IMG/VR virus record: IMGVR_UViG_3300045988_181101
Reading direction: 5' to 3' (one strand)
From: a virus
Length of the DNA: 64,000 nt
The number at the start of each line of letters is the position of its first letter. The first letter of the stretch is position 1. Under the pieces are notes generated by a model, which was not told the DNA's origin, did not search any database, and saw only the letters and a program-made list of their open reading frames with translations. This document shows, one piece after another, positions 755-55,444 of the stretch. Made by a program: the position numbers and the translations under genes.

Positions 755-1154
755 TGGAGAAATAACGCGAGTAACAATATCAGATGCATTAGTGTCATAT
801 GGAACTATTTATGGTTATCTAAATAGTCCTGAAGGACCTTCGGTAATAATAGGTGAATTGAAAAATTATATGCTTGTATCTTCAAGAACGTATGGATATA
901 CGTTCAAAGCAGTTGGTAGTGGAAATGTATCAATATCATTGAATTTAATCTTAAATACTAAAATATCATCACATACTGTAACGGAAGCTACAGGAGGAAT
1001 AACTGCTGACAAAATGTTTATTGTACAATCTACATCCGGAAGTATAATTACAATTAGGTTTGATAATTCTCCAAGTGGTGCAACAATTTCATCCAAAGTT
1101 TATTTTGAAGGATATATAAATCCTATATTAATGGACTTTACAATTGAACGTTAA
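723..1154 (+). CDS. silent alternative C-terminal cassette for the fibre gene 1210-2613 (no start codon of its own)
   Basis: Only substantial plus-strand ORF not antisense to a better minus-strand ORF. It begins with KTLTISLSQEA, encoded by IR-L in the same frame as in the fibre gene. There is no ATG near its 5' end (the track start at 669 is TTG inside the promoter repeat). 143 codons are open in AT-rich DNA, ending just before the 40-bp palindrome. Confidence 0.65.
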   Translation, partial: KTLTISLSQEAGEITRVTISDALVSYGTIYGYLNSPEGPSVIIGELKNYMLVSSRTYGYTFKAVGSGNVSISLNLILNTKISSHTVTEATGGITADKMFIVQSTSGSIITIRFDNSPSGATISSKVYFEGYINPILMDFTIER

Positions 1155-31441: not shown

Positions 31442-31963
31442 TTAAAAATTCATTCTACGTCCATATTCAGCCATAAGTAAACTGTCAGAAAAGTTATCAT
31501 CTTCATTCTTACATTTATTTGTTCTTCTAAGATCTACAGTAGGAAAAATTCTATGAGAAGCTAAGAAGCTCATTTTCTTTGTATCAATAACTTGAGTTTT
31601 ACCTGTTGTAGAAGGTTTTGTTATCACATTAATTCCTCTAAACATTTCTTTTTGCCAAATCTTGGGATTTACTTTTGTATAAGGTAACCCGATTGTAGCA
31701 ATAACACCTTCGATTAATCCTGCTATAAATCCAAAGTTAAATGTTCCTTTTGCTGAACTACCGAAAATTGCGTGTATATTCTCAATTATAACATGACAAT
31801 TATCTTCATACTTAGAAAGGTTTAATAATGTATTACTTATTTCGACTGCATCTACATTTTTCGCATTTTTCAATAAAAAAAATGATTCTATGAATTTTCC
31901 AGTTTCATCTACAATCGAGATACAACCTTTAACACCGGGGTCTATACCTATATAATATTTCAT
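31442..31963 (-). CDS. RuvC-like Holliday junction resolvase
   Basis: YIGIDPGVKG, IIENIHAIF and G...G.I......LPY..V.P..WQK follow the RuvC acidic-residue layout. Confidence 0.6.
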   Translation of the reverse strand: MKYYIGIDPGVKGCISIVDETGKFIESFFLLKNAKNVDAVEISNTLLNLSKYEDNCHVIIENIHAIFGSSAKGTFNFGFIAGLIEGVIATIGLPYTKVNPKIWQKEMFRGINVITKPSTTGKTQVIDTKKMSFLASHRIFPTVDLRRTNKCKNEDDNFSDSLLMAEYGRRMNF

Positions 31964-34900
31964 ACTTCTAATCTACTTACTCCATTTTCTTTAATAACGC
32001 GAATTTGACTAATTTCTTCATTCAGTTTTGGTACATGAGTAACTATAAGAATAGGTTGCTTGAAGAAACTTATAGAAGTTGTAATATTCTCAATACCAAG
32101 TGAATCTACACTTTCCAATATTTCATCTATAAGTAAGAATTGCATTCCACCATATTTCTTAGTAGTGTTGATCATTGATTGAAGAGCAAGTATAAGTGCT
32201 ATTTCACAACGTGCTTTTTCACCTTCAGAGTAAAATGTAAATAATTCCATTTCATCTCTAAAAATGTAAGGTGTAATTTCTTCTTTAAGTTTACCGTTTG
32301 CACCTTTCTTAAAACCTTCAATCATTAATCTTAAATCACTACCCATTTTCTTTAAAATATCATTAGCAGAAAATTGAATATTCTTCAACTGTTCCATTGC
32401 AAGATACATTTTAAAATCCTTGAAACGTTGAGTCCATTGATTTATATTGAAAATATCATTTGTTTTATCTTCTATTTTTGAAGCAATTTTAGAAATAGAT
32501 TTGTTTATACTTTCTATTCGTTTTTCAATATTAGATGTATCTTTTTCTTTTAATGGTTCTTTTAAAATTTCTTGAATAAGTTTTTCTTTATGTTCTATTG
32601 TCTCATAAGCTAACTCAACTTCAACTTTACCTGATTTTAAATTCTTATTCAATTTTAAAATCTGTGTATCAATAGTATCAATTGATTGAATTACGGTATT
32701 TAATTTATTTTTAATTGATCGTTGTGATTGTAATATAGAGTTTTCTTCATTTTCAGTCTCCTTTCTTAGAGAGTTATATTCTTTTATAACTTCATCTAAA
32801 TCTATTACAATTTGATTACATTCATCCTTTTCTTCTTTTTCTTTTTCAATAGAATTATTACACTTATCCTTTTCTTCTTTTAATTCGTCAATATTTTTAT
32901 CACATTTAAGAAGGAATTCGTGATGACATTTAGGACAAACAATCACACCTGACAAGATATTATCTATAGAATTAAGAGTTGATTTCAATTCCCTTATTCT
33001 ATCATTATGTTTATCAATTTCCTTTTCTGTAGACCTTTTATCTTCTTTATATTGATTTAAATCTTTATCAATTTCACTATATACTTCTTGAAATCTATTT
33101 AAATCAATAGACGATAATTCTTTTTCAACCTTTTCTTTTATTTTTTCAAGATCCTCTTTCTCTTTAAATTTATCCTCGAGATCCTTTTGATAAGAACCTA
33201 ATAAAATTTGCAAATCTTGAGTCTTATGATCAATTTTCTGAATTTCTTGTCGAATCTCTTCAATTCGCTCATTTCTTTCAGCTTCTTGATCTTTAGAATT
33301 TTCTTGTTCTAATTGTTCTTCATATACAGAAAGTTTGCCTGTCAATAAAGATTTTTCATCTTCTAATGAACGTTTTTCTTCAGTTATTTCATCAATTTTT
33401 TCTATAATAACATCCTTCGTTTTATCAATCTTTGAAAAATTGATAAAACGACTTATAAGAGCCAATTTTTCAGTATTAGATGCTTTAAAGAAAGAATTAT
33501 AATTATCTTTTGTTACAATATAATAAGATTTAGCATCTTCTGCAGAAATTTCAATCCAATTAGATACATATCTATTTCCATCAAGAACTGTAGCACAATT
33601 TACTGGTGTAACCTTTTCATTTTCATCAATCAAAGATAATCTTAATGTAGACGAACCTTTTATACGTATTTCTCTTTCTATAGATAGAGTTTGTTTACGT
33701 ATAGGGCAATATATTTGAACACAAGTATAAGCTACATCAAATCCATATCGAATCAACTTTTTATCTACATTTCCACGTAAATTAACACCGTAAATACCAT
33801 AAAATAAACCTTGACCAAAAAATGAATTATGTGTAACAATAAAATTGTTGGTTAAATATAATCCATCTTTATTAGAAACGGTAATACATTGCATTTCTTC
33901 TTTTCCAACATATTGAATATCAACAATTCTCCGATCAACACAGTTCATTTTCTTCTCTTGCATCAATCTTTCAGATTTTCTTTTCAGATGAAAAAGATCA
34001 AGTCCTTTAGGAGGAACAATTCTTAACCGATAACTATCCTTACATTGAATTTTCTCTCCTTTTTTATTCTTATAAGAAGATTTTAAATGAGAAACTTTAT
34101 GACATAGACAACCGAGACTTCTTGCTATAAAAGCAACGTCTTCAATTAATTGTTTAGAAGTTAAAGTTAATTCTACCTTTCCTCTTTTATCAACATATCC
34201 GTCTGTATCTAAAAGGCCTCTAAGAAGTTCAAGTCTGACTTCTTTATTATTGTACATGTATTCCTTCGGAATAAATTTTTCAGAAGAATAAAGTCCAAAT
34301 AAATTATATTTTTCTAAGATCTTCCAAAAAGCATCTTCTTGATTTTGAACTTTATTAATACGATAATCAAGTTTATTTGATGATTGAACTAATTCAAATT
34401 TTTTATAAAAATTCAATCTATTTACAATCTCTTCGTCAGGTGAAGTAAAACCAATAATTTTTTGTGTAAATCCTCCATCACCTAACAAAGCTCCTAAGGT
34501 GTAGGGGTCAATATCGACTTTTTGATAAGGATAATCTATACAATCGACTGTTGGCACTCTATATCTATAAGGATTACTATTTCCACAATTACATTGTATA
34601 GATTGTTTCATTATATCTTTAAGCGATTTTATAACCCATTTCTTAGGAGTATAACATGAAGCAACTTTCCATAGATGCTCGTTATTACATTTGACTTTTG
34701 TTCCATCATTGAATGTAATTTCGTAACAATCAATGATTCCTTGAGGATGAATCGCTACTACTACTTGTTCTTTTCCATCAGAACCTAAAATTTTAGTTCC
34801 AATTCTAACATCTCTCATTTTTATAGATCCGGATAATGTCATAATATCAGAATCTAAACTCTGCGCTTTACCTCCACCATTTGAAAGTTGATCATCCTGA

Positions 34901-35001
34901 GTTCTATTCTCTCCTATTACAGCAATAGGTTTGTGTACAAAATCATAATCAAGAGATTCAAATGGACCAAAATTCTTTAATACTAATCTTCTTGGATACA
35001 T
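31960..35001 (-). CDS. sbcC: SbcC/Rad50/gp46-type recombination ATPase, interrupted by an intein
   Basis: N-extein ends ...LSNGGGK and C-extein starts SFFGQGLFYGIYG, which restores NGGGKS. A long coiled coil follows with a CPKCHH zinc hook. C-terminal signature/Walker B is LLIDEILESVD. Confidence 0.8.
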   Translation of the reverse strand: MYPRRLVLKNFGPFESLDYDFVHKPIAVIGENRTQDDQLSNGGGKAQSLDSDIMTLSGSIKMRDVRIGTKILGSDGKEQVVVAIHPQGIIDCYEITFNDGTKVKCNNEHLWKVASCYTPKKWVIKSLKDIMKQSIQCNCGNSNPYRYRVPTVDCIDYPYQKVDIDPYTLGALLGDGGFTQKIIGFTSPDEEIVNRLNFYKKFELVQSSNKLDYRINKVQNQEDAFWKILEKYNLFGLYSSEKFIPKEYMYNNKEVRLELLRGLLDTDGYVDKRGKVELTLTSKQLIEDVAFIARSLGCLCHKVSHLKSSYKNKKGEKIQCKDSYRLRIVPPKGLDLFHLKRKSERLMQEKKMNCVDRRIVDIQYVGKEEMQCITVSNKDGLYLTNNFIVTHNSFFGQGLFYGIYGVNLRGNVDKKLIRYGFDVAYTCVQIYCPIRKQTLSIEREIRIKGSSTLRLSLIDENEKVTPVNCATVLDGNRYVSNWIEISAEDAKSYYIVTKDNYNSFFKASNTEKLALISRFINFSKIDKTKDVIIEKIDEITEEKRSLEDEKSLLTGKLSVYEEQLEQENSKDQEAERNERIEEIRQEIQKIDHKTQDLQILLGSYQKDLEDKFKEKEDLEKIKEKVEKELSSIDLNRFQEVYSEIDKDLNQYKEDKRSTEKEIDKHNDRIRELKSTLNSIDNILSGVIVCPKCHHEFLLKCDKNIDELKEEKDKCNNSIEKEKEEKDECNQIVIDLDEVIKEYNSLRKETENEENSILQSQRSIKNKLNTVIQSIDTIDTQILKLNKNLKSGKVEVELAYETIEHKEKLIQEILKEPLKEKDTSNIEKRIESINKSISKIASKIEDKTNDIFNINQWTQRFKDFKMYLAMEQLKNIQFSANDILKKMGSDLRLMIEGFKKGANGKLKEEITPYIFRDEMELFTFYSEGEKARCEIALILALQSMINTTKKYGGMQFLLIDEILESVDSLGIENITTSISFFKQPILIVTHVPKLNEEISQIRVIKENGVSRLEV
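33826..34866 (-). mobile_element. intein (347 aa) with LAGLIDADG homing-endonuclease domain, class-3-like
   Basis: Residues 46-392 of the ORF: starts AQSLDSDIM, ends FIVTHN|S. LAGLIDADG motifs are LGALLGDGGF and LLRGLLDTDGYV. Block B is NNEHLW and block F is MQCITV. Confidence 0.75.
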
Positions 35002-35963
35002 AACATCTTTTCTTTAACAGATTCGTTAATTTCATCAAACAATTCTTTATCTTGTAATAAAGCTTCTCTAACATTATCCATTCCTTGTCCTAATCGATAA
35101 TCATCGCCATAATAGAACCAAGCTCCTTTTTTCTGACACAAACCAAGTTTTACAGCAAGTTCTACTGTTTCTTGAACTATATCGAATCCGACTCCAAATC
35201 TCAACATTACTTCACACGTTCTTAATGGAGGAGCTATCTTATTTTTAACTATCTTAATTTTAGTCTTATTAGCTACTGCTATATCTCCACTTTTATCTGT
35301 GCTGATTCGAGCAAACTCGACTCTTTGTGTAGAATAAAATTTAAGAGCTTCACCACCAGGAGTTGTTGTTGTAGGTCCAAAACCAAAACCTCCATTAATT
35401 TTTTGTCTCACTTGATTAATACATAATAGAATGTTTCTATTCTTATTACATATGTTCTTGAAAATTCCTAATTGTGCAGACATTAATCGAGCAATCAATC
35501 CAATCTTAGCATCACCAACATCACCTTCAATTACACATTGAGGAACAAGACCTGCTACTGAATCAAGAACAACAATACCTATCTCAGGTTCTTCTAATCC
35601 TAAACGAACAGCTTCAAGTGCACTTTCTGCAGTATCAGGTTGAGAAAGTAGAAATTTATTTTGATCTAAATCAAGTCCTATTTTCTTAGCATATTCAAGA
35701 TCTAAAGATTGTTCTGTATCAACATAAAATACAGCTTTACCTCTTTTTTGCACTTCCTTACATAAATGTAATGCAGCAGTTGACTTTCCTGATGATGGTG
35801 GTCCATATATCTCATGTATACGAGCATTTGCAAAACCTCCTCCAAGAACTTCGTCAAAAGCTAAAGATCCTGACGAAATTGTTTCCACTTCTATTTTCTT
35901 CGTCACAACAATACCTTGTCCTAATCTTTTTTCAATAGTTGATAAAAATTTATCTAATGCCAT
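34983..35963 (-). CDS. recA: RecA-family recombinase
   Basis: SGSLAFDEVLGGGF, Walker A GPPSSGKST, Walker B VVLDSVAGLVP, plus L1/L2-type loops. Confidence 0.85.
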   Translation of the reverse strand: MALDKFLSTIEKRLGQGIVVTKKIEVETISSGSLAFDEVLGGGFANARIHEIYGPPSSGKSTAALHLCKEVQKRGKAVFYVDTEQSLDLEYAKKIGLDLDQNKFLLSQPDTAESALEAVRLGLEEPEIGIVVLDSVAGLVPQCVIEGDVGDAKIGLIARLMSAQLGIFKNICNKNRNILLCINQVRQKINGGFGFGPTTTTPGGEALKFYSTQRVEFARISTDKSGDIAVANKTKIKIVKNKIAPPLRTCEVMLRFGVGFDIVQETVELAVKLGLCQKKGAWFYYGDDYRLGQGMDNVREALLQDKELFDEINESVKEKMLCIQED

Positions 35964-35965
35964 AA

Positions 35966-37012
35966 TTATAATACTTGTTCTAAAATAGTTAATCCTTTTT
36001 CATAAGAATAATCATTCTGTTCACAAAAAATCTTAAACTTATTGATAATATCAGAATTAGTAAGAGTTTTAATTTCAGATACTTCTGCTTCTTCTGAAAT
36101 CTCTTCAATTTCTTTAGCTTTCATCTTTACATCAATACCAAGTTCTGTATAAACTTTCTTATCAATAGATTTGAGCTCATCCTGATTACCTTTAAATTCT
36201 ACTCTCAAAAGATTATCAGGATTTTCATCTTTAAACATTTTAACAATCTTATTAACTTGTTTGAGAGTCGTTACACTTAAATCAATAACAATCTTTCTAA
36301 ATTTCTTTCCTTTCGAAGGAATCAGATCATAAGTCAAATCATCGTAAATGATCCAAAATCCTTTATTTTCGTCTTCACCAAAATTATTTTGAGTCAATGA
36401 TCCAAGATGAACGAATTTTTCTCCAACTTCTTGATAATCGTGAAAATGACCTTGAAAAGTCATATCAAAATCATCAAATGTCTTTAGACTTAATCTATTT
36501 TCTGTTACATGACCAAGATTCTTACTTCCTGTTATAGCAATATGTCCTAAACAAACAAGTTTATCTTTACTATCCTTTTCATCTTGAATACACTCAATAA
36601 GTTCATCAAATCTTTCTACCCAAATATCTTCATCATAATAAGCAATACATCCAAATAAAATATCTCCTATTCTAACAATATCTATATCATCAATGAGTTT
36701 AAAATTAGGATGATGTTTAAATGGTTTAAGAAAAGAATCTGAACTTTTATAATCTGATGAATCGTGATTTCCTCTAATACAAATCAATTCTATACCAGCT
36801 TTATCGTAATGATCTAAAATCTTATCCCAAGAAGATAGAACAACTTGTTTTTGACTTATTCTTGAATCAAAAACATCACCAAGACAAAAACATTGTTTTA
36901 AATTGTTAGTTTTACAGATATCAATACCTTGTTTTATCAATAATTCTTCAATTTCTTGATAATTAGATTCTTTTAAATGAATATCTGTAAAAATCATTGT
37001 GAGTGGTTTCAT
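35966..37012 (-). CDS. sbcD: SbcD/Mre11-type nuclease (calcineurin-like phosphoesterase)
   Basis: Phosphoesterase motifs TDIHL, GDVFD, GNHD and GH.....H.H, located adjacent to sbcC. Confidence 0.8.
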   Translation of the reverse strand: MKPLTMIFTDIHLKESNYQEIEELLIKQGIDICKTNNLKQCFCLGDVFDSRISQKQVVLSSWDKILDHYDKAGIELICIRGNHDSSDYKSSDSFLKPFKHHPNFKLIDDIDIVRIGDILFGCIAYYDEDIWVERFDELIECIQDEKDSKDKLVCLGHIAITGSKNLGHVTENRLSLKTFDDFDMTFQGHFHDYQEVGEKFVHLGSLTQNNFGEDENKGFWIIYDDLTYDLIPSKGKKFRKIVIDLSVTTLKQVNKIVKMFKDENPDNLLRVEFKGNQDELKSIDKKVYTELGIDVKMKAKEIEEISEEAEVSEIKTLTNSDIINKFKIFCEQNDYSYEKGLTILEQVL

Positions 37013-51258: not shown

Positions 51259-52704
51259 TTATATCGTATTGACTTTTCGCTCACCTCTTTTTAATTTTTC
51301 AACTTTGTCTTTAGATTTTTTATGATTGAAATTTCGTTCATCTTCATTACTGAATAATTGTATGGTTCTTGATTTGTCATAAAATCTACCTTTATCATAA
51401 TTTGTTGCTATTGGAAAAGTTAATTGAGATTCTTTAAAATCACGTAATTTATCTATATAAATACGCATAGTACAGTTATTCTTTTCTTCTCTTGTTGTAT
51501 TGCCTGTAAAAACGAATGAAAACGGCTTTACTAATGTTCTATCTCCTTCTGTATAACTTCTATCAATTACTTTTTCAGGATTATCCCAAATTTCAATAGG
51601 TACATTACCTGTTTGTGTTGCTGTTATCCCAACCATTTTAAATTCTACACAAAGATTTTTGAATAACTGAGCACAAGATTGAAGTTTATCCTTCTTAAAA
51701 TTAGGATTATTATCTATTGTACTATTAATACCAGTCTTTACAAGATCAAGTGAATCTAAAATTAAAACTCGAGGATAAAAACCATAAATTTTATGATAAT
51801 CAAGAACAATATTCCTAACTTCTACCATTGAAGCTTCACCGAATTTTTCAAAACCATAAACCGTTATATCTTCACCATAATTTTTCATGGCTTTATATGC
51901 ATTCATAATTTGTTTTTGGTCTTCAGGTTTCAAAAAACCACTTCTAATATCATTAAATTCTTGTCCTGTCCAATATTGATCATACTTATCAAGACAAGCT
52001 TTTACACCACCTTCTAATTGTATATGTAGTACAGGATGTCCATCATAAGCTGCTGCCATTCCATGATGTCTTAATACCGTAGACTTACCTTGACCACTTT
52101 TCATGATCCATAACACAGTATCTTCTATCAAAGCTCCACCATAAGAAATTGCGTCTAACCTATCGATACCTAATGTTATATGATCAGGAACTTTGTTTTC
52201 TTCTGAATCACACCTTCTATTTTTCATTCGAGTTTCGAATCCATTGAAAACTCTTGAAAAATTTCCTCCATCATGTCTTAGAGAAATAGAAAGTATTCGT
52301 TGACTTTCTTCAAGATTTACTTTAATTGCTTCATCTTTTTTATTTTCTTCATATAAATCATGAACTTTCTTAGACAATAATTGAAATTCAACATCTTTAA
52401 TGTATGATTCTAATTGATCTATTATAATCTCTCTATCAACTTTATTTGCGTTTTGAATTTCAGCAATTGTTTCTTGAACTGAATCATTTTCTATATATTT
52501 TTGAGAAACTACTCCAAGCGAAGGTACAACTTCATTCTTTGTAAAGATTTCGATAGCCTCTCTTAATAAATACTTATAACCTGGCCATTCTTTAGGTATT
52601 AATTGATAAGTCAAATTACATACAGCTATTCTTGTTAACGAAATATCTGAATAAATCAACTTAAATAATTCTGCCATAAAATTGGCACTTAATTTCTGAG
52701 CCAT
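51259..52704 (-). CDS. DnaB-like replicative helicase
   Basis: RecA-fold C-terminal domain with Walker A MKSGQGKST and Walker B LILDSLDL. Adjacent to the primase gene. Confidence 0.7.
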   Translation of the reverse strand: MAQKLSANFMAELFKLIYSDISLTRIAVCNLTYQLIPKEWPGYKYLLREAIEIFTKNEVVPSLGVVSQKYIENDSVQETIAEIQNANKVDREIIIDQLESYIKDVEFQLLSKKVHDLYEENKKDEAIKVNLEESQRILSISLRHDGGNFSRVFNGFETRMKNRRCDSEENKVPDHITLGIDRLDAISYGGALIEDTVLWIMKSGQGKSTVLRHHGMAAAYDGHPVLHIQLEGGVKACLDKYDQYWTGQEFNDIRSGFLKPEDQKQIMNAYKAMKNYGEDITVYGFEKFGEASMVEVRNIVLDYHKIYGFYPRVLILDSLDLVKTGINSTIDNNPNFKKDKLQSCAQLFKNLCVEFKMVGITATQTGNVPIEIWDNPEKVIDRSYTEGDRTLVKPFSFVFTGNTTREEKNNCTMRIYIDKLRDFKESQLTFPIATNYDKGRFYDKSRTIQLFSNEDERNFNHKKSKDKVEKLKRGERKVNTI

Positions 52705-52705
52705 A

Positions 52706-55444
52706 TTAAATCAAATTTATTCCTACTTGAACTTCTTTCTCACACTCTCTCAACGAGTTAATCGAAATAAAGGTACTCATACAAACATCATCGTGTCCCG
52801 AAGCAGCTTCAAGTTTACCATTATCACTTTTAAACGTTATAGATGAGAATTCACCAAACATTAAGTCAACTGCTTGTCTCGTTTCTCCTACAGCATAAGG
52901 ACATTTTAATTGACCTCTTTCAAACATTGCTGAAAGACTTGGTAATCCTGTATAAAGATCCTTCTTATTTCCTTCAGTCGTAGTAAAAGTTTCAATATTT
53001 TTCAATCCTCTTTCTCTTGCTAACGCAGATAATATGGACTGAAATCCGTTTGATTCACATACAATTTTATTAGGTCTAAATAATCTATCAAGTTGAACAA
53101 TCTTATCTATCTGCTCATTATGAGACATTCCTTTTTGTCTGTAATAAGTAAGTAGATAATAATTCTTCATTGAATCAATACCCCAAACTGAATATACAGT
53201 ATAGTCTGCACCAATATTACCTGAAACAGCAAAGTCTACACCTATATGAACTCTTTGTAATTTTATAGGATAATCATCTATAGATGTAGCGAATCTTATA
53301 TTTTCCATTCCTACAGTTGATCTCATCAAATATTCATAAGGAAATATTGTAGATGAATCACTAATAGGTACTACAAGATACTCACGATTAAACACGATTG
53401 TTCCAAGTTCTTCTCTCTTTGCAAGAATCTGATCAAACGTATATCTATCAGGAGCAAGTGGTCTACCATCAGGAAATATAACTGGATATTCAAAACAGTA
53501 AAATCGCTTATCAGCTTTCAATACTTGATATAATTCATTTGGTGCAGAAGAATATGGTGTTCCACAAACAATAAAATATCCATAAGGCTCTACGATAGGC
53601 TCAATTGTTCCTTTTAGAAGTTCTTTAAGTTTTTCTCTTTGTTCGTCTGAATATAAAGAAGATTCATCAGGCATATCATCACATAATACAGCTCCTACGT
53701 GTAGACCGCGAATGAAACCATCGCGACCACGAATATGTAATGTGCTTCCTGTTTCAGTTGTTATACCTGTTTCTCCAATAGATGCTTTACCATTTGGATT
53801 AAGTTTCTCAGCTATCAAATCATTTGTTTCAATTTCCTCTCTTACTTTTTTAATCTGAACTTTCGCAAGTGTCATCGTAGATGTGATATAACACGTTTCT
53901 TTTCTGTTTTGATTATCTACAGTATTTTGTCTCCAGGGAACAGGTCGACAATAACTCCATAATCTCCAAAGAATAAATGCATAAGACCACATATAACTAT
54001 TATGAACAACAGTTCCATCACTGAGTAGAAATTTATGATCACCATCTAAAGCAAATCCATAATAGTCTCCTTCTCCTGCTTGAGTAATAGTTAAAGCTGA
54101 TTTATTACCTTGTTGAACTTTATCATATTGTTGAGCTTGCTTTCTCTTTACTTTAGTAGGTATTGTCCAAATTTTACCGGATATATAAATTCTGTAGAAT
54201 TTATAATTTTTATAACTATATTCACCAATTTGTATATTTTTTCTCACATGTGTTTCTATAGAAGTACATTGAAATCCAAGTGACAAAGCAAGATAACGAA
54301 TTTGTTCTATAAGCTCATATTTCTTTAAAGATAATTCAAACGAACATGAATTTCTCGAAGTTCCTTTTCGTTTTAAATATTTTTGTTCATTTAAATGACC
54401 GTCCGAATCCAAGATACCTGCTAATAATTGAAGTCTCTGTTGACGAGAACCTTTCATATAAACATCAGGAATATGCTTGTTTTGAATTAAATTCAAATCT
54501 CTCAATTTAGATGATAAATCTACTCCGGAAATTCCGTTTAACATTTCTTTTTCTTTATAAGAATATTTTCCTCCTATCCTTTTACTATATTCTTTAATTG
54601 CATTTCTTACTTCTATATCCGGATTTGTTATGTAATAATTGCAATTCGTACCATCACCAAGCCAAAGTCCAAGCCAATATGGATCAATAGAAAGTTCTTT
54701 TTCAGGAAGTTCCCATCCATCAATCTTTCTGTATCCAAAAATTTTCTTCCGACCATAACCTGCATGTTTAGGGATGTCTTCAACAGGAATGTCTTTATAA
54801 ATTCTTTTTGTTACTCTTTTATTATCTATTGTTGTTGGTCGATCCCAAATACAACAAACCAAATGACCTTCATTCACATAATAATCTTTAGCATAAGTTT
54901 GATGAACTTTATACATCTGCGACCGACCTCTATGAAGTTGAAGAACTGTTCTTGGAGTATTATCTATTCCCATCACTTGATCTCCAACTTTAATATCTTG
55001 AACAGGCTTTAAAGAACCATCATACATAACTACTAACTCGTTGATACTGAGACATTTACCTGAACCGCGACCACAAAGATAACAGCTCCACGGAAACAGT
55101 TGTGTCATATTACCCCATTCAACATTTCTCCAACCCATCCTAAAATTAGGGAGCATTGTCAAAATGAAGTAATTCAATGAATAAATCTTCAAAGTTGTAT
55201 CCATTGAAGCTTTTACATTCTCTATATAATCAAGACTTTCAGAATCAAGTGTTCTACCAAGATACAGTGTTTTTTCAGTTTGAGTAAGTATTTCCTTTAA
55301 CATTTTATCAACATCATTATTATAACCTTCAAGAAGTTGATTTAATGCTTTAGGAGATAGATCCTCAATTATTTTATCTACAGTATCATATAGATAATTC
55401 ATTTGATTTACTGAAAGTAAATCTTTACCATCTAATGTTAACAT
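52706..55444 (-). CDS. terL: terminase large subunit, interrupted by an intein
   Basis: Exteins restore Walker A CGRGSGK|S. Walker B is AVLCDDMPDE. Nuclease motifs are HIGVDFAVSG..ADYTV, CESNGFQ and GHDDVCMS. Confidence 0.8.
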   Translation of the reverse strand: MLTLDGKDLLSVNQMNYLYDTVDKIIEDLSPKALNQLLEGYNNDVDKMLKEILTQTEKTLYLGRTLDSESLDYIENVKASMDTTLKIYSLNYFILTMLPNFRMGWRNVEWGNMTQLFPWSCYLCGRGSGKCLSINELVVMYDGSLKPVQDIKVGDQVMGIDNTPRTVLQLHRGRSQMYKVHQTYAKDYYVNEGHLVCCIWDRPTTIDNKRVTKRIYKDIPVEDIPKHAGYGRKKIFGYRKIDGWELPEKELSIDPYWLGLWLGDGTNCNYYITNPDIEVRNAIKEYSKRIGGKYSYKEKEMLNGISGVDLSSKLRDLNLIQNKHIPDVYMKGSRQQRLQLLAGILDSDGHLNEQKYLKRKGTSRNSCSFELSLKKYELIEQIRYLALSLGFQCTSIETHVRKNIQIGEYSYKNYKFYRIYISGKIWTIPTKVKRKQAQQYDKVQQGNKSALTITQAGEGDYYGFALDGDHKFLLSDGTVVHNSYMWSYAFILWRLWSYCRPVPWRQNTVDNQNRKETCYITSTMTLAKVQIKKVREEIETNDLIAEKLNPNGKASIGETGITTETGSTLHIRGRDGFIRGLHVGAVLCDDMPDESSLYSDEQREKLKELLKGTIEPIVEPYGYFIVCGTPYSSAPNELYQVLKADKRFYCFEYPVIFPDGRPLAPDRYTFDQILAKREELGTIVFNREYLVVPISDSSTIFPYEYLMRSTVGMENIRFATSIDDYPIKLQRVHIGVDFAVSGNIGADYTVYSVWGIDSMKNYYLLTYYRQKGMSHNEQIDKIVQLDRLFRPNKIVCESNGFQSILSALARERGLKNIETFTTTEGNKKDLYTGLPSLSAMFERGQLKCPYAVGETRQAVDLMFGEFSSITFKSDNGKLEAASGHDDVCMSTFISINSLRECEKEVQVGINLI
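53999..55054 (-). mobile_element. intein (352 aa) with LAGLIDADG homing-endonuclease domain, class 1
   Basis: Residues 131-482: starts CLSINELVVMYDG, ends DGTVVHN|S. LAGLIDADG motifs are LGLWLGDGT and LLAGILDSDGHL. Confidence 0.8.

What the first reader, a model, noticed from the sequence alone, without database searches (positions are those of the whole stretch)
33826..34866. Intein in the SbcC/Rad50 Walker A loop with Ala1 and a class-3 (W-C-T) signature
Removing residues 46-392 restores ...LSNGGGK|SFFGQGL..., the NGGGKS P-loop of gp46/SbcC ATPases. The insert has Hint blocks plus two LAGLIDADG motifs. Its first residue is Ala (AQSLDSDIM), which aligns with the Cys1 of the TerL intein (CLSINELVV). 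It also carries the triad described for class 3 inteins:
- Trp two residues after the block B His (NNEHLW).
- Cys at the block F position that is usually Asp (MQCITV versus VYDLTV).
- Thr before the terminal His-Asn (VTHN|S).
This implies splicing through a block F cysteine branch rather than an N-terminal nucleophile, in a host protein class where I am not aware of such inteins being typical.
Basis: partly seen in the sequence, partly recalled or inferred. Interest (0 to 1): 0.65.

Follow-up and report, generated by a model that had tools for sequence, protein, structure and literature searches.

The report
Class 3 intein in phage SbcC
A 347-residue self-splicing, mobile protein insert (a class 3 intein with a homing endonuclease) splits the ATP-binding loop of a gut phage's SbcC/Rad50-type repair ATPase; the reading is correct, but it is an ordinary member of a very large, already described intein family.

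Summary
Window 33826..34866 (- strand) is a 1041-nt in-frame insert between the Walker-A Lys and Ser of a 1013-aa SbcC/Rad50-like ORF (31960..35001).

- **Empty sites:** Natural vacant alleles are 98% identical in DNA. They lack exactly these 1041 nt and read NGGGK|SFFGQ.
- **Fold:** The insert folds (AF2 pLDDT 92) as a Hint domain plus a LAGLIDADG endonuclease.
- **Class 3 signature:** It has Ala1, Trp at B:12, Cys at F:4, Thr at G:5, His-Asn, and Ser+1. In 152 related inteins, His, Cys, Thr and Asn are invariant and Trp is present in 150.
- **Closest solved mini-inteins:** These are the experimentally characterised class 3 inteins Msm DnaBi1 and MchDnaB-1.

Splicing through a block-F cysteine branch is therefore the best-supported mechanism. 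It is inferred, not shown.

The insert is not isolated. Other SbcC lineages of the same roughly 100-110 kb gut-phage group carry allelic class 3 inteins at the same site. These include full-length forms (58-68% identical) and 141-aa mini-inteins. Relatives also sit in the P-loop of the group's DnaB-like helicase. About 4,700 cluster representatives match at E<=1e-30.

I found no paper that names SbcC/Rad50 as an intein host. Verdict: a new member of a known kind, of modest interest.

The parts
31960..35001 (-). SbcC/Rad50-like ATPase precursor ORF (1013 aa, including the intein)
   Evidence: ORF. The spliced extein matches PHROG 77, the SbcC-like subunit, at E 3.8e-46. Homologues are named SbcC/Rad50 by their sources and carry SMC_N or AAA_23 Pfam hits. 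The CPKC zinc hook, the YSEGEKAR signature motif, the LLIDE Walker B and the VTHV H-loop are all visible in the alignment.
34867..35001 (-). N-extein, residues 1-45, ending in Walker-A ...SNGGGK
   Evidence: Alignment with intein-less homologues.
33826..34866 (-). Class 3 intein, 347 aa (AQSLDSDIM...FIVTHN)
   Evidence: These 1041 nt are exactly absent from vacant alleles L010 and L011. The family HMM matches at E 1.6e-121. The AF2 model has pLDDT 91.9 and pTM 0.91. Foldseek matches intein-endonucleases and class 3 mini-inteins.
34864..34866 (-). Ala1, the non-nucleophilic first intein residue (block A)
   Evidence: Residue 1 is Ala in 117 and Pro in 14 of 152 relatives; only 5 have Ser or Cys.
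34669..34677 (-). Block B His64-Leu65-Trp66 (B:10-B:12)
   Evidence: His is 152/152 and Trp 150/152 in relatives. The motif aligns with HQW of MchDnaB-1 and Msm DnaBi1.
33967..34569 (-). LAGLIDADG homing-endonuclease domain (about intein residues 100-300). Motif 1 is at 34471..34497 and motif 2 at 34195..34227.
   Evidence: Pfam LAGLIDADG_3 and Hom_end. Foldseek matches TliVMA, PI-SceI and PI-PfuI. The acidic residues Asp130 and Asp222 are conserved in 143 and 147 of 152 relatives.
33886..33888 (-). Cys327 (block F position 4), the predicted initiating nucleophile
   Evidence: Invariant in 152/152 relatives. Aligns with Cys124 of MchDnaB-1 (VRCVEV) and with RCVEV of Msm DnaBi1.
33826..33834 (-). 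Block G Thr345-His346-Asn347 (G:5-G:7)
   Evidence: Thr is 152/152, His 148/152 and Asn 152/152.
31960..33825 (-). C-extein, starting with Ser+1 (33823..33825), the Walker-A Ser
35966..37012 (-). SbcD/Mre11-like nuclease partner gene. RecA (34983..35963) lies between it and SbcC.
   Evidence: PHROG 100 at E 2e-41 and Pfam Metallophos. RecA matches Pfam at 2.7e-73.

Best explanation
The insert is a mobile class 3 intein with a LAGLIDADG homing endonuclease. It sits between the Walker-A Lys and Ser of a phage SbcC/Rad50-like ATPase.

**Predicted splicing pathway (inferred).**
1. The precursor cannot bind ATP until it splices.
2. The block-F Cys327 attacks the Lys(-1)-Ala1 peptide bond. It is assisted by His64, Trp66 and Thr345. 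This forms a block-F thioester branch.
3. The N-extein is passed to the hydroxyl of Ser+1.
4. Asn347 cyclises and releases the intein.
5. An O-to-N shift restores ...NGGGKSFFGQ..., giving an active SbcC that works with the neighbouring SbcD-like nuclease.

**Predicted homing (inferred).** At the DNA level the endonuclease cuts intein-less SbcC alleles during co-infection, and repair copies the intein in.

**What is shown and what is inferred.**
- Shown here: the exact boundaries, the fold, the full sequence signature, family membership, and a population pattern consistent with homing.
- Inferred: the chemistry and the endonuclease activity.
For: **Boundaries.** Vacant alleles 98% identical in DNA lack exactly the 1041 nt.

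**Signature.** A1, W66, C327, T345, H346, N347 and S+1 are all present. The four catalytic positions are invariant in 152/152 relatives and Trp is present in 150/152. The same positions are invariant in the 68-sequence alignment A2.

**Similarity to proven class 3 inteins.**
- The best PDB sequence matches are 6rix/6riy and 6bs8, with matching HxW, xCxEV and THN.
- The best mini-intein fold matches are 6riy (TMt 0.82) and 6bs8.
- The model is confident, with pLDDT 91.9.

**Definition and mechanism.** These come from PMC2807308 and PMC5050341.

**Evidence that the intein is functional.**
- The 3-kb ORF is intact in 27 protein variants; the exact window protein is on 15 contigs of up to 105 kb.
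- pN/pS is 0.11 for the intein (window vs L003) and 0.065 for the C-extein (window vs L004).
- Allelic 141-aa mini-inteins with no endonuclease keep A1, HLW, QCITV and THN|S at the same SbcC site. They occur in clusters of 829 and 658 members and can persist only if they splice.

**Evidence of mobility.**
- The intein differs by 0.1-0.2% where the C-extein differs by 2.5%.
- Distribution among SbcC homologues is sporadic.
- Inteins are 67-68% identical across exteins that are only 41% identical.
Against: - There is no biochemical evidence for splicing, for a block-F branch, or for endonuclease activity.
- Grafting W/C/T onto the class 1 gp41-1 intein did not yield splicing (PMC7664689). The triplet alone is therefore not sufficient proof of mechanism.
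- Block B position 7 is Asn rather than Thr or Ser. This position is variable in the family, and the paper reports it as dispensable in the prototype.
- The selection estimate for the intein rests on one divergent allele. Its changes cluster in a 46-codon patch, which probably reflects recombination.
- The extein variation may also have been imported from intein-less alleles.
Confidence: 0.85

Rival explanations
1. The intein is dead or no longer splices. The SbcC gene would then be inactivated by a parasitic insert that persists only through homing.
For: No splicing data exist. The intein is nearly invariant among most alleles, which could simply mean very recent spread.
Against: - All catalytic residues are intact.
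- The 3-kb ORF is uninterrupted in 27 variants from many samples.
- The C-extein shows pN/pS 0.065 and keeps its Walker B, signature, zinc-hook and H-loop motifs.
- Endonuclease-free mini-inteins at the same site retain the full signature in very abundant lineages.
Confidence: 0.04
2. The intein splices by another route. One option is class 2-like direct attack of Ser+1 on the N-terminal junction. Another is use of a nearby Ser (Ser3 or Ser6) as an N-terminal nucleophile, with a shifted junction.
For: Residue 1 is Ala, as in class 2 KlbA inteins. Ser residues lie at intein positions 3 and 6.
Against: - Class 2 is defined by the absence of the WCT triplet (PMC2807308). Here the triplet is present and invariant across the family.
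- Position 3 is Pro in most relatives.
- A junction at Ser3 would leave GGGKAQ|SFF and destroy the P-loop. The vacant alleles read GGGK|SFF.
Confidence: 0.06
3. The insert is not an intein. It would be a permanent domain insertion (a Hint or BIL-like domain plus endonuclease) or an assembly artefact.
For: The Pfam Intein_splicing and Hom_end_hint matches are below their curated cut-offs.
Against: - The same allele is found on independent contigs from several samples.
- The absence from 98%-identical alleles is precise.
- The terminal HN|S is canonical.
- The model shows a confident Hint fold that matches solved inteins.
- A permanent 347-aa insert between the Lys and Ser of GKS is incompatible with ATP binding.
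Confidence: 0.01

Closest known systems
Mycobacterial DnaB P-loop class 3 mini-inteins (Msm DnaBi1, PDB 6bs8; MchDnaB-1, PDB 6rix/6riy)
   Same: - Ala1, HxW in block B, xCxEV in block F, and THN followed by Ser or Thr.
- Insertion in a P-loop ATPase.
- They are the best mini-intein matches by sequence and by fold.
   Different: - They are mini-inteins without an endonuclease.
- Identity is only 25-30% over the N-terminal Hint half.
- The host is a bacterial replicative helicase, not a phage SbcC.
Mycobacteriophage Bethlehem DnaB intein (class 3 prototype; Tori et al. 2010, PMC2807308)
   Same: It is a full-length phage intein with a LAGLIDADG endonuclease. It has a non-nucleophilic residue 1, a WCT triplet at B:12/F:4/G:5, and Thr or Ser at +1.
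   Different: It has Pro1 rather than Ala1, it sits in a DnaB-like helicase, and it comes from an actinophage.
Allelic SbcC P-loop inteins of related gut phages (P0425, P0439 and P0452 full-length; the MT835601.1/P0405/P0420 141-aa mini-inteins)
   Same: - Same insertion point (GxGK|S) in orthologous SbcC genes.
- Same class 3 signature.
- 58-68% identity for the full-length forms and 48-50% over the splicing domain for the mini forms.
   Different: - The exteins are only 41-42% identical.
- Residue 2 is Leu (ALSLDS or ALTMD) rather than Gln.
- The region at intein residues 101-190 is only 40-48% identical.
- The mini forms lack the endonuclease.
- None of them is annotated or published, as far as I could find.
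Class 3 inteins in the P-loop of the DnaB-like helicase of the same phage group (P0257; MT835760.1/L019; L002)
   Same: - K|S/T insertion in a P-loop.
- Class 3 signature.
- 57% identity overall and 77-79% over the C-terminal 157 residues.
   Different: - They sit in a different host gene, the homologue of window ORF 51259..52704, which is vacant in this window.
- The N-terminal 190 residues are only about 40% identical.
Class 1 TerL P-loop intein of this same window (53999..55054)
   Same: It is inserted between the Walker-A Lys and Ser, carries a LAGLIDADG endonuclease, and is of similar size at 352 aa.
   Different: It has Cys1, no Trp at B:12, no Cys at F:4, and VVHN rather than VTHN. It is 26% identical.

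Membership tests
Intein (Hint-domain protein-splicing element) | In-frame insertion in a conserved host protein, absent from orthologues, whose removal restores the host motif | tested here: met
   Vacant alleles L010 and L011 are 98% identical in DNA, lack exactly 1041 nt and read NGGGK|SFFGQ. More than 100 homologues of 666-668 aa lack the insert.
Intein (Hint-domain protein-splicing element) | Hint fold with blocks A, B, F and G, a terminal (His-)Asn, and a Ser/Thr/Cys at +1 | tested here: met
   AF2 pLDDT is 91.9. Foldseek matches TliVMA and PI-SceI at E 1e-17 and class 3 mini-inteins. THN|S is present.
Intein (Hint-domain protein-splicing element) | Autocatalytic excision with ligation of the exteins | not testable with these tools
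   There is only indirect support. The host gene is intact and constrained, and endonuclease-free allelic mini-inteins persist.
Class 3 intein (Tori et al. 2010) | No Ser/Thr/Cys nucleophile at intein residue 1 | tested here: met
   The residue is Ala1. The register is fixed by the vacant alleles and by alignment to Ala1 of Msm DnaBi1 through the allelic mini-intein.
Class 3 intein (Tori et al. 2010) | Trp at block B position 12 | tested here: met
   NNEHLW, Trp66. Trp is present in 150/152 relatives.
Class 3 intein (Tori et al. 2010) | Cys at block F position 4 | tested here: met
   MQCITV, Cys327. It aligns with VRCVEV of MchDnaB-1 and is 152/152 in relatives.
Class 3 intein (Tori et al. 2010) | Thr at block G position 5 | tested here: met
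   VTHN, Thr345, present in 152/152 relatives.
Class 3 intein (Tori et al. 2010) | Ser or Thr (rarely Cys) at +1 | tested here: met
   The residue is Ser+1. Across the family it is Thr in 96, Ser in 49 and Cys in 7.
Class 3 intein (Tori et al. 2010) | Obligate block-F Cys that forms a thioester branched intermediate, with N-terminal cleavage possible without residue 1 or +1 nucleophiles | not testable with these tools
   This needs mutagenesis and biochemistry.
Class 2 (KlbA-like) intein | No N-terminal nucleophile AND no WCT triplet, with direct attack by the +1 residue | tested here: not met
   The WCT triplet is present and invariant across the family. The definition is in PMC2807308.
LAGLIDADG (double-motif) homing endonuclease | Two LAGLIDADG motifs with conserved acidic residues, in an endonuclease fold inserted in the Hint domain | tested here: met
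   Pfam LAGLIDADG_3 at 5e-10 and Hom_end at 5e-8. Asp130 and Asp222 are conserved. The fold matches PI-SceI and PI-PfuI.
LAGLIDADG (double-motif) homing endonuclease | Site-specific cleavage of the intein-less allele, followed by homing | tested here: inconclusive
   Several observations are consistent with homing.
- The intein is almost identical in diverged extein backgrounds.
- Distribution is sporadic.
- The silent GGT AAA versus GGC AAG difference is linked to occupancy in 4 occupied and 2 vacant alleles.
- pN/pS is 0.11.

No activity was measured.
SbcC/Rad50 (SMC-like ABC ATPase), host protein | A split ABC head (Walker A; signature motif, Walker B and H-loop at the C-terminus), a long coiled coil with a CxxC zinc hook, and an SbcD/Mre11 partner | tested here: met
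   - PHROG 77 at E 3.8e-46.
- The motifs NGGGKS, CPKC, YSEGEKAR, LLIDE and VTHV are visible.
- The SbcD-like gene lies two genes upstream, with RecA between them.
- The AF2 secondary structure shows a beta-rich N-terminal head half, a long helical hairpin and a C-terminal head half. The head is low confidence (pLDDT 65.8), so I did no fold search on it.
- The PDB profile search gave only a coiled-coil artefact.

The most novel reading that the evidence does not exclude
This phage group may be a natural, still-active 'intein ecosystem'. Related class 3 inteins would move between the P-loops of different genes (SbcC and the DnaB-like helicase) by extein switching and would exchange segments by recombination. 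Silent target-site changes in vacant alleles would act as resistance. In addition, the redox- and zinc-sensitive block-F cysteine could make SbcC maturation conditional on the infected cell's state, so the intein would act as a post-translational switch on the phage's SbcCD nuclease rather than as a pure parasite.
Probability: 0.12. Interest if true: 0.55.

Novelty: new member of a known kind. Interest (0 to 1): 0.3.

Why it matters
For annotation, the 1013-aa ORF should be read as a 666-aa SbcC/Rad50-like ATPase plus a 347-aa class 3 intein.

For intein biology, it adds SbcC/Rad50 to the list of class 3 extein hosts. I found no paper that names this host. The phage group also offers several comparable forms:
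- occupied SbcC alleles
- vacant alleles with the cognate site
- vacant alleles with a diverged site
- endonuclease-free mini-inteins
- a paralogous copy in the helicase P-loop
- a class 1 intein in the TerL P-loop

That makes the group a convenient natural system for studying homing, target-site resistance and extein switching. Extein switching through nucleotide-binding sites has already been described for actinophages (bioRxiv 10.1101/2025.01.02.630785).

It does not change what is known about splicing mechanisms.

Tried and rejected
1. **Megablast of the gene against GenBank phages:** no match.
2. **First intein search.** It listed neither the window's own protein nor any SbcC host. For a while this suggested that the SbcC insertion was unique and that the closest relative was a DnaB-like helicase intein. 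That conclusion was wrong.
   - A tblastn hit that began at extein residue 43 led to a mini-intein at the same SbcC site.
   - A further search then found full-length allelic SbcC inteins that are 58-68% identical.
   - I have therefore toned down the 'mosaic origin from the helicase intein' idea. The N-terminal Hint half is 81% identical to the SbcC allele P0425. Only residues 101-190 are divergent from everything sampled.
3. **Exact search for the fused site in IMG/VR:** no hit, because the vacant cognate alleles differ by two silent bases.
4. **Comparison of the ±30 nt around the SbcC and helicase sites:** only the generic GGT-NNN-GGT-AAR P-loop core is shared, 12 of 24 core bases. There is no striking identity to prove extein switching.
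5. **AF2 model of the spliced SbcC:** low confidence in the head (pLDDT 65.8, pTM 0.33), so I did no fold search on it.
6. **PDB profile search with the SbcC alignment:** only a coiled-coil artefact.
7. **NCBIfam:** gave only intein-containing host-protein models, far below their cut-offs.
8. **Tools and papers that were unavailable.**
   - Tori & Perler 2011 (PMC3133030) is not held.
   - The first paper search timed out.
9. **Family HMM scan of all six frames of the window:** only the SbcC and TerL inteins were found.
Full report
**1. The observation**

The - strand ORF 31960..35001 encodes 1013 aa. Residues 46-392 map to window 33826..34866 and read AQSLDSDIM...NNFIVTHN. They are flanked by ...LSNGGGK and SFFGQGLF.... 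I checked the key codons on the sequence:
- His64: 34675..34677
- Trp66: 34669..34671
- Cys327: 33886..33888
- Thr345-His346-Asn347: 33826..33834
- Ser+1: 33823..33825

Pfam finds LAGLIDADG_3 at 5e-10 and Hom_end at 5e-8. The Intein_splicing and Hom_end_hint matches are weaker and below their cut-offs.

**2. The boundaries are proven by natural empty sites**

The spliced 666-aa sequence finds more than 100 homologues of 666-668 aa without the insert. Some are 91% identical. All of them read GxGK|S/T at the site.

Two IMG/VR contigs, L010 and L011, are 98% identical in DNA to the spliced gene. They lack exactly the 1041 nt and encode the same NGGGK|SFFGQ. At the site they differ only by silent changes in the two or three codons 5' of the insertion point: GGA GGT AAA versus GG(A/G) GGC AAG. 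All four occupied alleles examined carry GGT AAA.

A second group of vacant alleles (L001, L006-L009) is about 90% identical overall. Ten of the 20 nt around the site are changed, giving NGTGK|TSVGQ.

**3. What the insert is**

With a 68-sequence family alignment, AlphaFold2 gives pLDDT 91.9 and pTM 0.91.

Foldseek against the PDB gives two kinds of match.
- The whole model matches intein-endonucleases: TliVMA, PI-SceI and PI-PfuI, at E 1e-17 to 1e-12.
- Among mini-inteins, the class 3 inteins match best: MchDnaB-1 (6riy, TMt 0.82) and Msm DnaBi1 (6bs8, TMt 0.77).

By sequence, 6rix/6riy and 6bs8 are also among the top PDB hits. So is 6riz, the gp41-1 intein engineered to carry C1A/F65W/D107C. 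The aligned motifs are HQW with HLW, VRCVEV with MQCITV, and PTHN with VTHN. The allelic SbcC mini-intein aligns from residue 1 (Ala) with Ala1 of Msm DnaBi1. This fixes the register.

**4. The class 3 test**

The literature defines class 3 by three features (PMC2807308; PMC5050341):
- a non-nucleophilic residue 1
- the Trp/Cys/Thr triplet at B:12, F:4 and G:5
- usually Ser or Thr at +1

All three are met. The signature is not a chance coincidence. An exhaustive HMMER search finds 19,772 cluster representatives at E<=1e-3 and 4,714 at E<=1e-30. The 152 full-length inteins in the best 145 representatives show the following.

| Position | Count out of 152 |
|---|---|
| His B:10 | 152 |
| Trp B:12 | 150 |
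| Cys F:4 | 152 |
| Thr G:5 | 152 |
| Asn G:7 | 152 |
| Residue 1 | Ala 117, Pro 14, Ser or Cys 5 |
| Residue -1 | Lys 116 |
| Residue +1 | Thr 96, Ser 49, Cys 7 |

I reject it for two reasons. Position 3 is Pro in most relatives, and the empty sites read GGGK|SFF. Class 2 is excluded by definition, because the triplet is present.

**5. The host protein and its context**

The extein matches PHROG 77, the SbcC-like subunit, at E 3.8e-46. It has a Walker A motif, a CPKC zinc hook, a YSEGEKAR signature motif, an LLIDE Walker B and a VTHV H-loop. It follows an SbcD-like nuclease gene (35966..37012) and a recA gene (34983..35963).

The window has 29.7% GC. Related contigs are 100-110 kb. The nearest cultured relatives of the SbcC gene are Cellulophaga, Chryseobacterium and Bacteroides phages, and there are also unverified 'Bacteriophage sp.' scaffolds from human faeces. 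The window is therefore most likely an uncultivated phage of gut Bacteroidota.

**6. The insert is not unique to this SbcC**

The first intein search missed this. A tblastn hit that started at extein residue 43 led to MT835601.1. Its SbcC is 42% identical in the extein and carries a 141-aa class 3 mini-intein at the same GSGK|S site: ALTMDADIL...SHLW...QQCITV...IPTHN|S.

A search with that extein found more.
- The mini-intein form occurs in many clusters, two of them with 829 and 658 member sequences.
- Three further SbcC lineages carry full-length inteins of 361-363 aa at the same site: P0425, P0439 and P0452.
- These three are 68%, 67% and 58% identical to the window's intein, although the exteins are only 41-42% identical.

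Inteins that are more similar than their exteins, together with a sporadic distribution, are what horizontal spread by homing predicts.

The persistence of endonuclease-free mini-inteins with an intact signature is the best indirect evidence that this family splices in the SbcC context.

**7. Population evidence within the window's own lineage**

The 90% cluster of the precursor has 27 variants; the exact window protein is on 15 contigs of up to 105 kb. In most listed variants the intein has no amino-acid change, while the extein has 1-9.

At the DNA level:
- L004 and L005 differ from the window by 0.1-0.2% in the intein and 2.5% in the C-extein.
- L003 carries 18 synonymous and 7 non-synonymous codon differences in the intein. 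They are clustered at intein codons 243-288. This gives pN/pS of 0.11.
- The C-extein has pN/pS of 0.065.

These numbers argue against a decaying element. They rest on few alleles, and recombination may have imported some of the variation.

**8. Relatives in other genes**

In GenBank phages, 851 records carry relatives of this intein. The closest is 49% identical. Most are annotated as helicases, primase-helicases or terminases, and none of the top 40 sits in an SbcC gene.

Within this phage group, the DnaB-like helicase corresponds to window ORF 51259..52704 (PHROG 19). Its P-loop is vacant in this window. Homologues carry a class 3 intein at their K|S/T site: P0257, whose extein is 75% identical, and MT835760.1/L019. 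That intein is 57% identical overall to the SbcC intein. It is 77-79% identical over the C-terminal 157 residues and about 40% identical over the N-terminal 190.

This pattern is compatible with 'extein switching' through similar nucleotide-binding sites, as described for actinophage class 3 inteins (bioRxiv 10.1101/2025.01.02.630785). However, the two sites share only the generic P-loop core, so it is not proven.

**9. Comparison with the literature, and novelty**

Class 3 inteins, their phage association, and the 'classic' K|S/T P-loop site are all established. Full-text searches for intein with SbcC or with Rad50 returned no paper that describes an intein in these proteins. The recent actinophage survey lists only four class 3 hosts, and none of them is SbcC.

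The finding is therefore a correct identification of a new host and insertion allele for a known kind of element. Both the mechanism and the site type are already known.

**10. Verdict**

Confidence is 0.85 that this is a functional class 3 intein that initiates splicing at Cys327. The chemistry is inferred. Novelty: new member of a known kind. Interest: 0.3.

Noticed in passing
window 53999..55054 (-), within the TerL ORF 52706..55444: There is a second intein in the same window. It is a 352-aa class 1 LAGLIDADG intein (GRGSGK|CLSINELVV...TVVHN|SYMW), also inserted between the Walker-A Lys and Ser. It is 26% identical to the SbcC intein. A related phage (L019, MT835760.1) has a shorter intein, apparently lacking the endonuclease domain, at the same TerL site.
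   Followed up: partly
window 51259..52704 (-); L002; L019 1880..4405; P0257: The DnaB-like helicase next to TerL has a vacant P-loop here (SGQGK|ST). Homologues carry a class 3 intein exactly at K|S/T. That intein is 57% identical to the SbcC intein overall and 77-79% identical over the C-terminal 157 aa. This may reflect extein switching or recombination between inteins.
   Followed up: partly
window 34867..34875 (last three N-extein codons); L010 and L011 at 1126..1135: The silent differences GGA GGT AAA (4 occupied alleles) versus GG(A/G) GGC AAG (2 vacant alleles, 98% identical) are perfectly linked to intein presence. They could be a co-conversion tract or silent target-site resistance to the endonuclease.
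   Followed up: partly
L018 2087..2509 (MT835601.1); P0402-P0413, P0420: 141-aa class 3 mini-inteins without an endonuclease sit at the same SbcC P-loop site in a 42%-identical SbcC lineage. They are very abundant in metagenomes, with clusters of 829 and 658 members.
   Followed up: yes
L002 position 871: The helicase intein on this 1.5-kb, 1x-coverage contig has an in-frame TAA in its endonuclease domain. The near-identical copy in L019 is intact, so the stop is either a sequencing error or a decaying endonuclease.
   Followed up: partly
window 34983..35001: The recA stop overlaps the SbcC start by 19 nt. The gene order is sbcD - recA - sbcC, with recA inserted between the two nuclease subunit genes, and it is conserved in L001 and L003-L005.
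   Followed up: no
(tool behaviour): The word-indexed search with the intein listed neither the window's own 1013-aa protein nor the 58-68% identical allelic SbcC inteins. The 50%-representative search also omitted them, probably because intein-less SbcC sequences represent those clusters. Host-range conclusions drawn from those two lists alone would have been wrong.
   Followed up: yes
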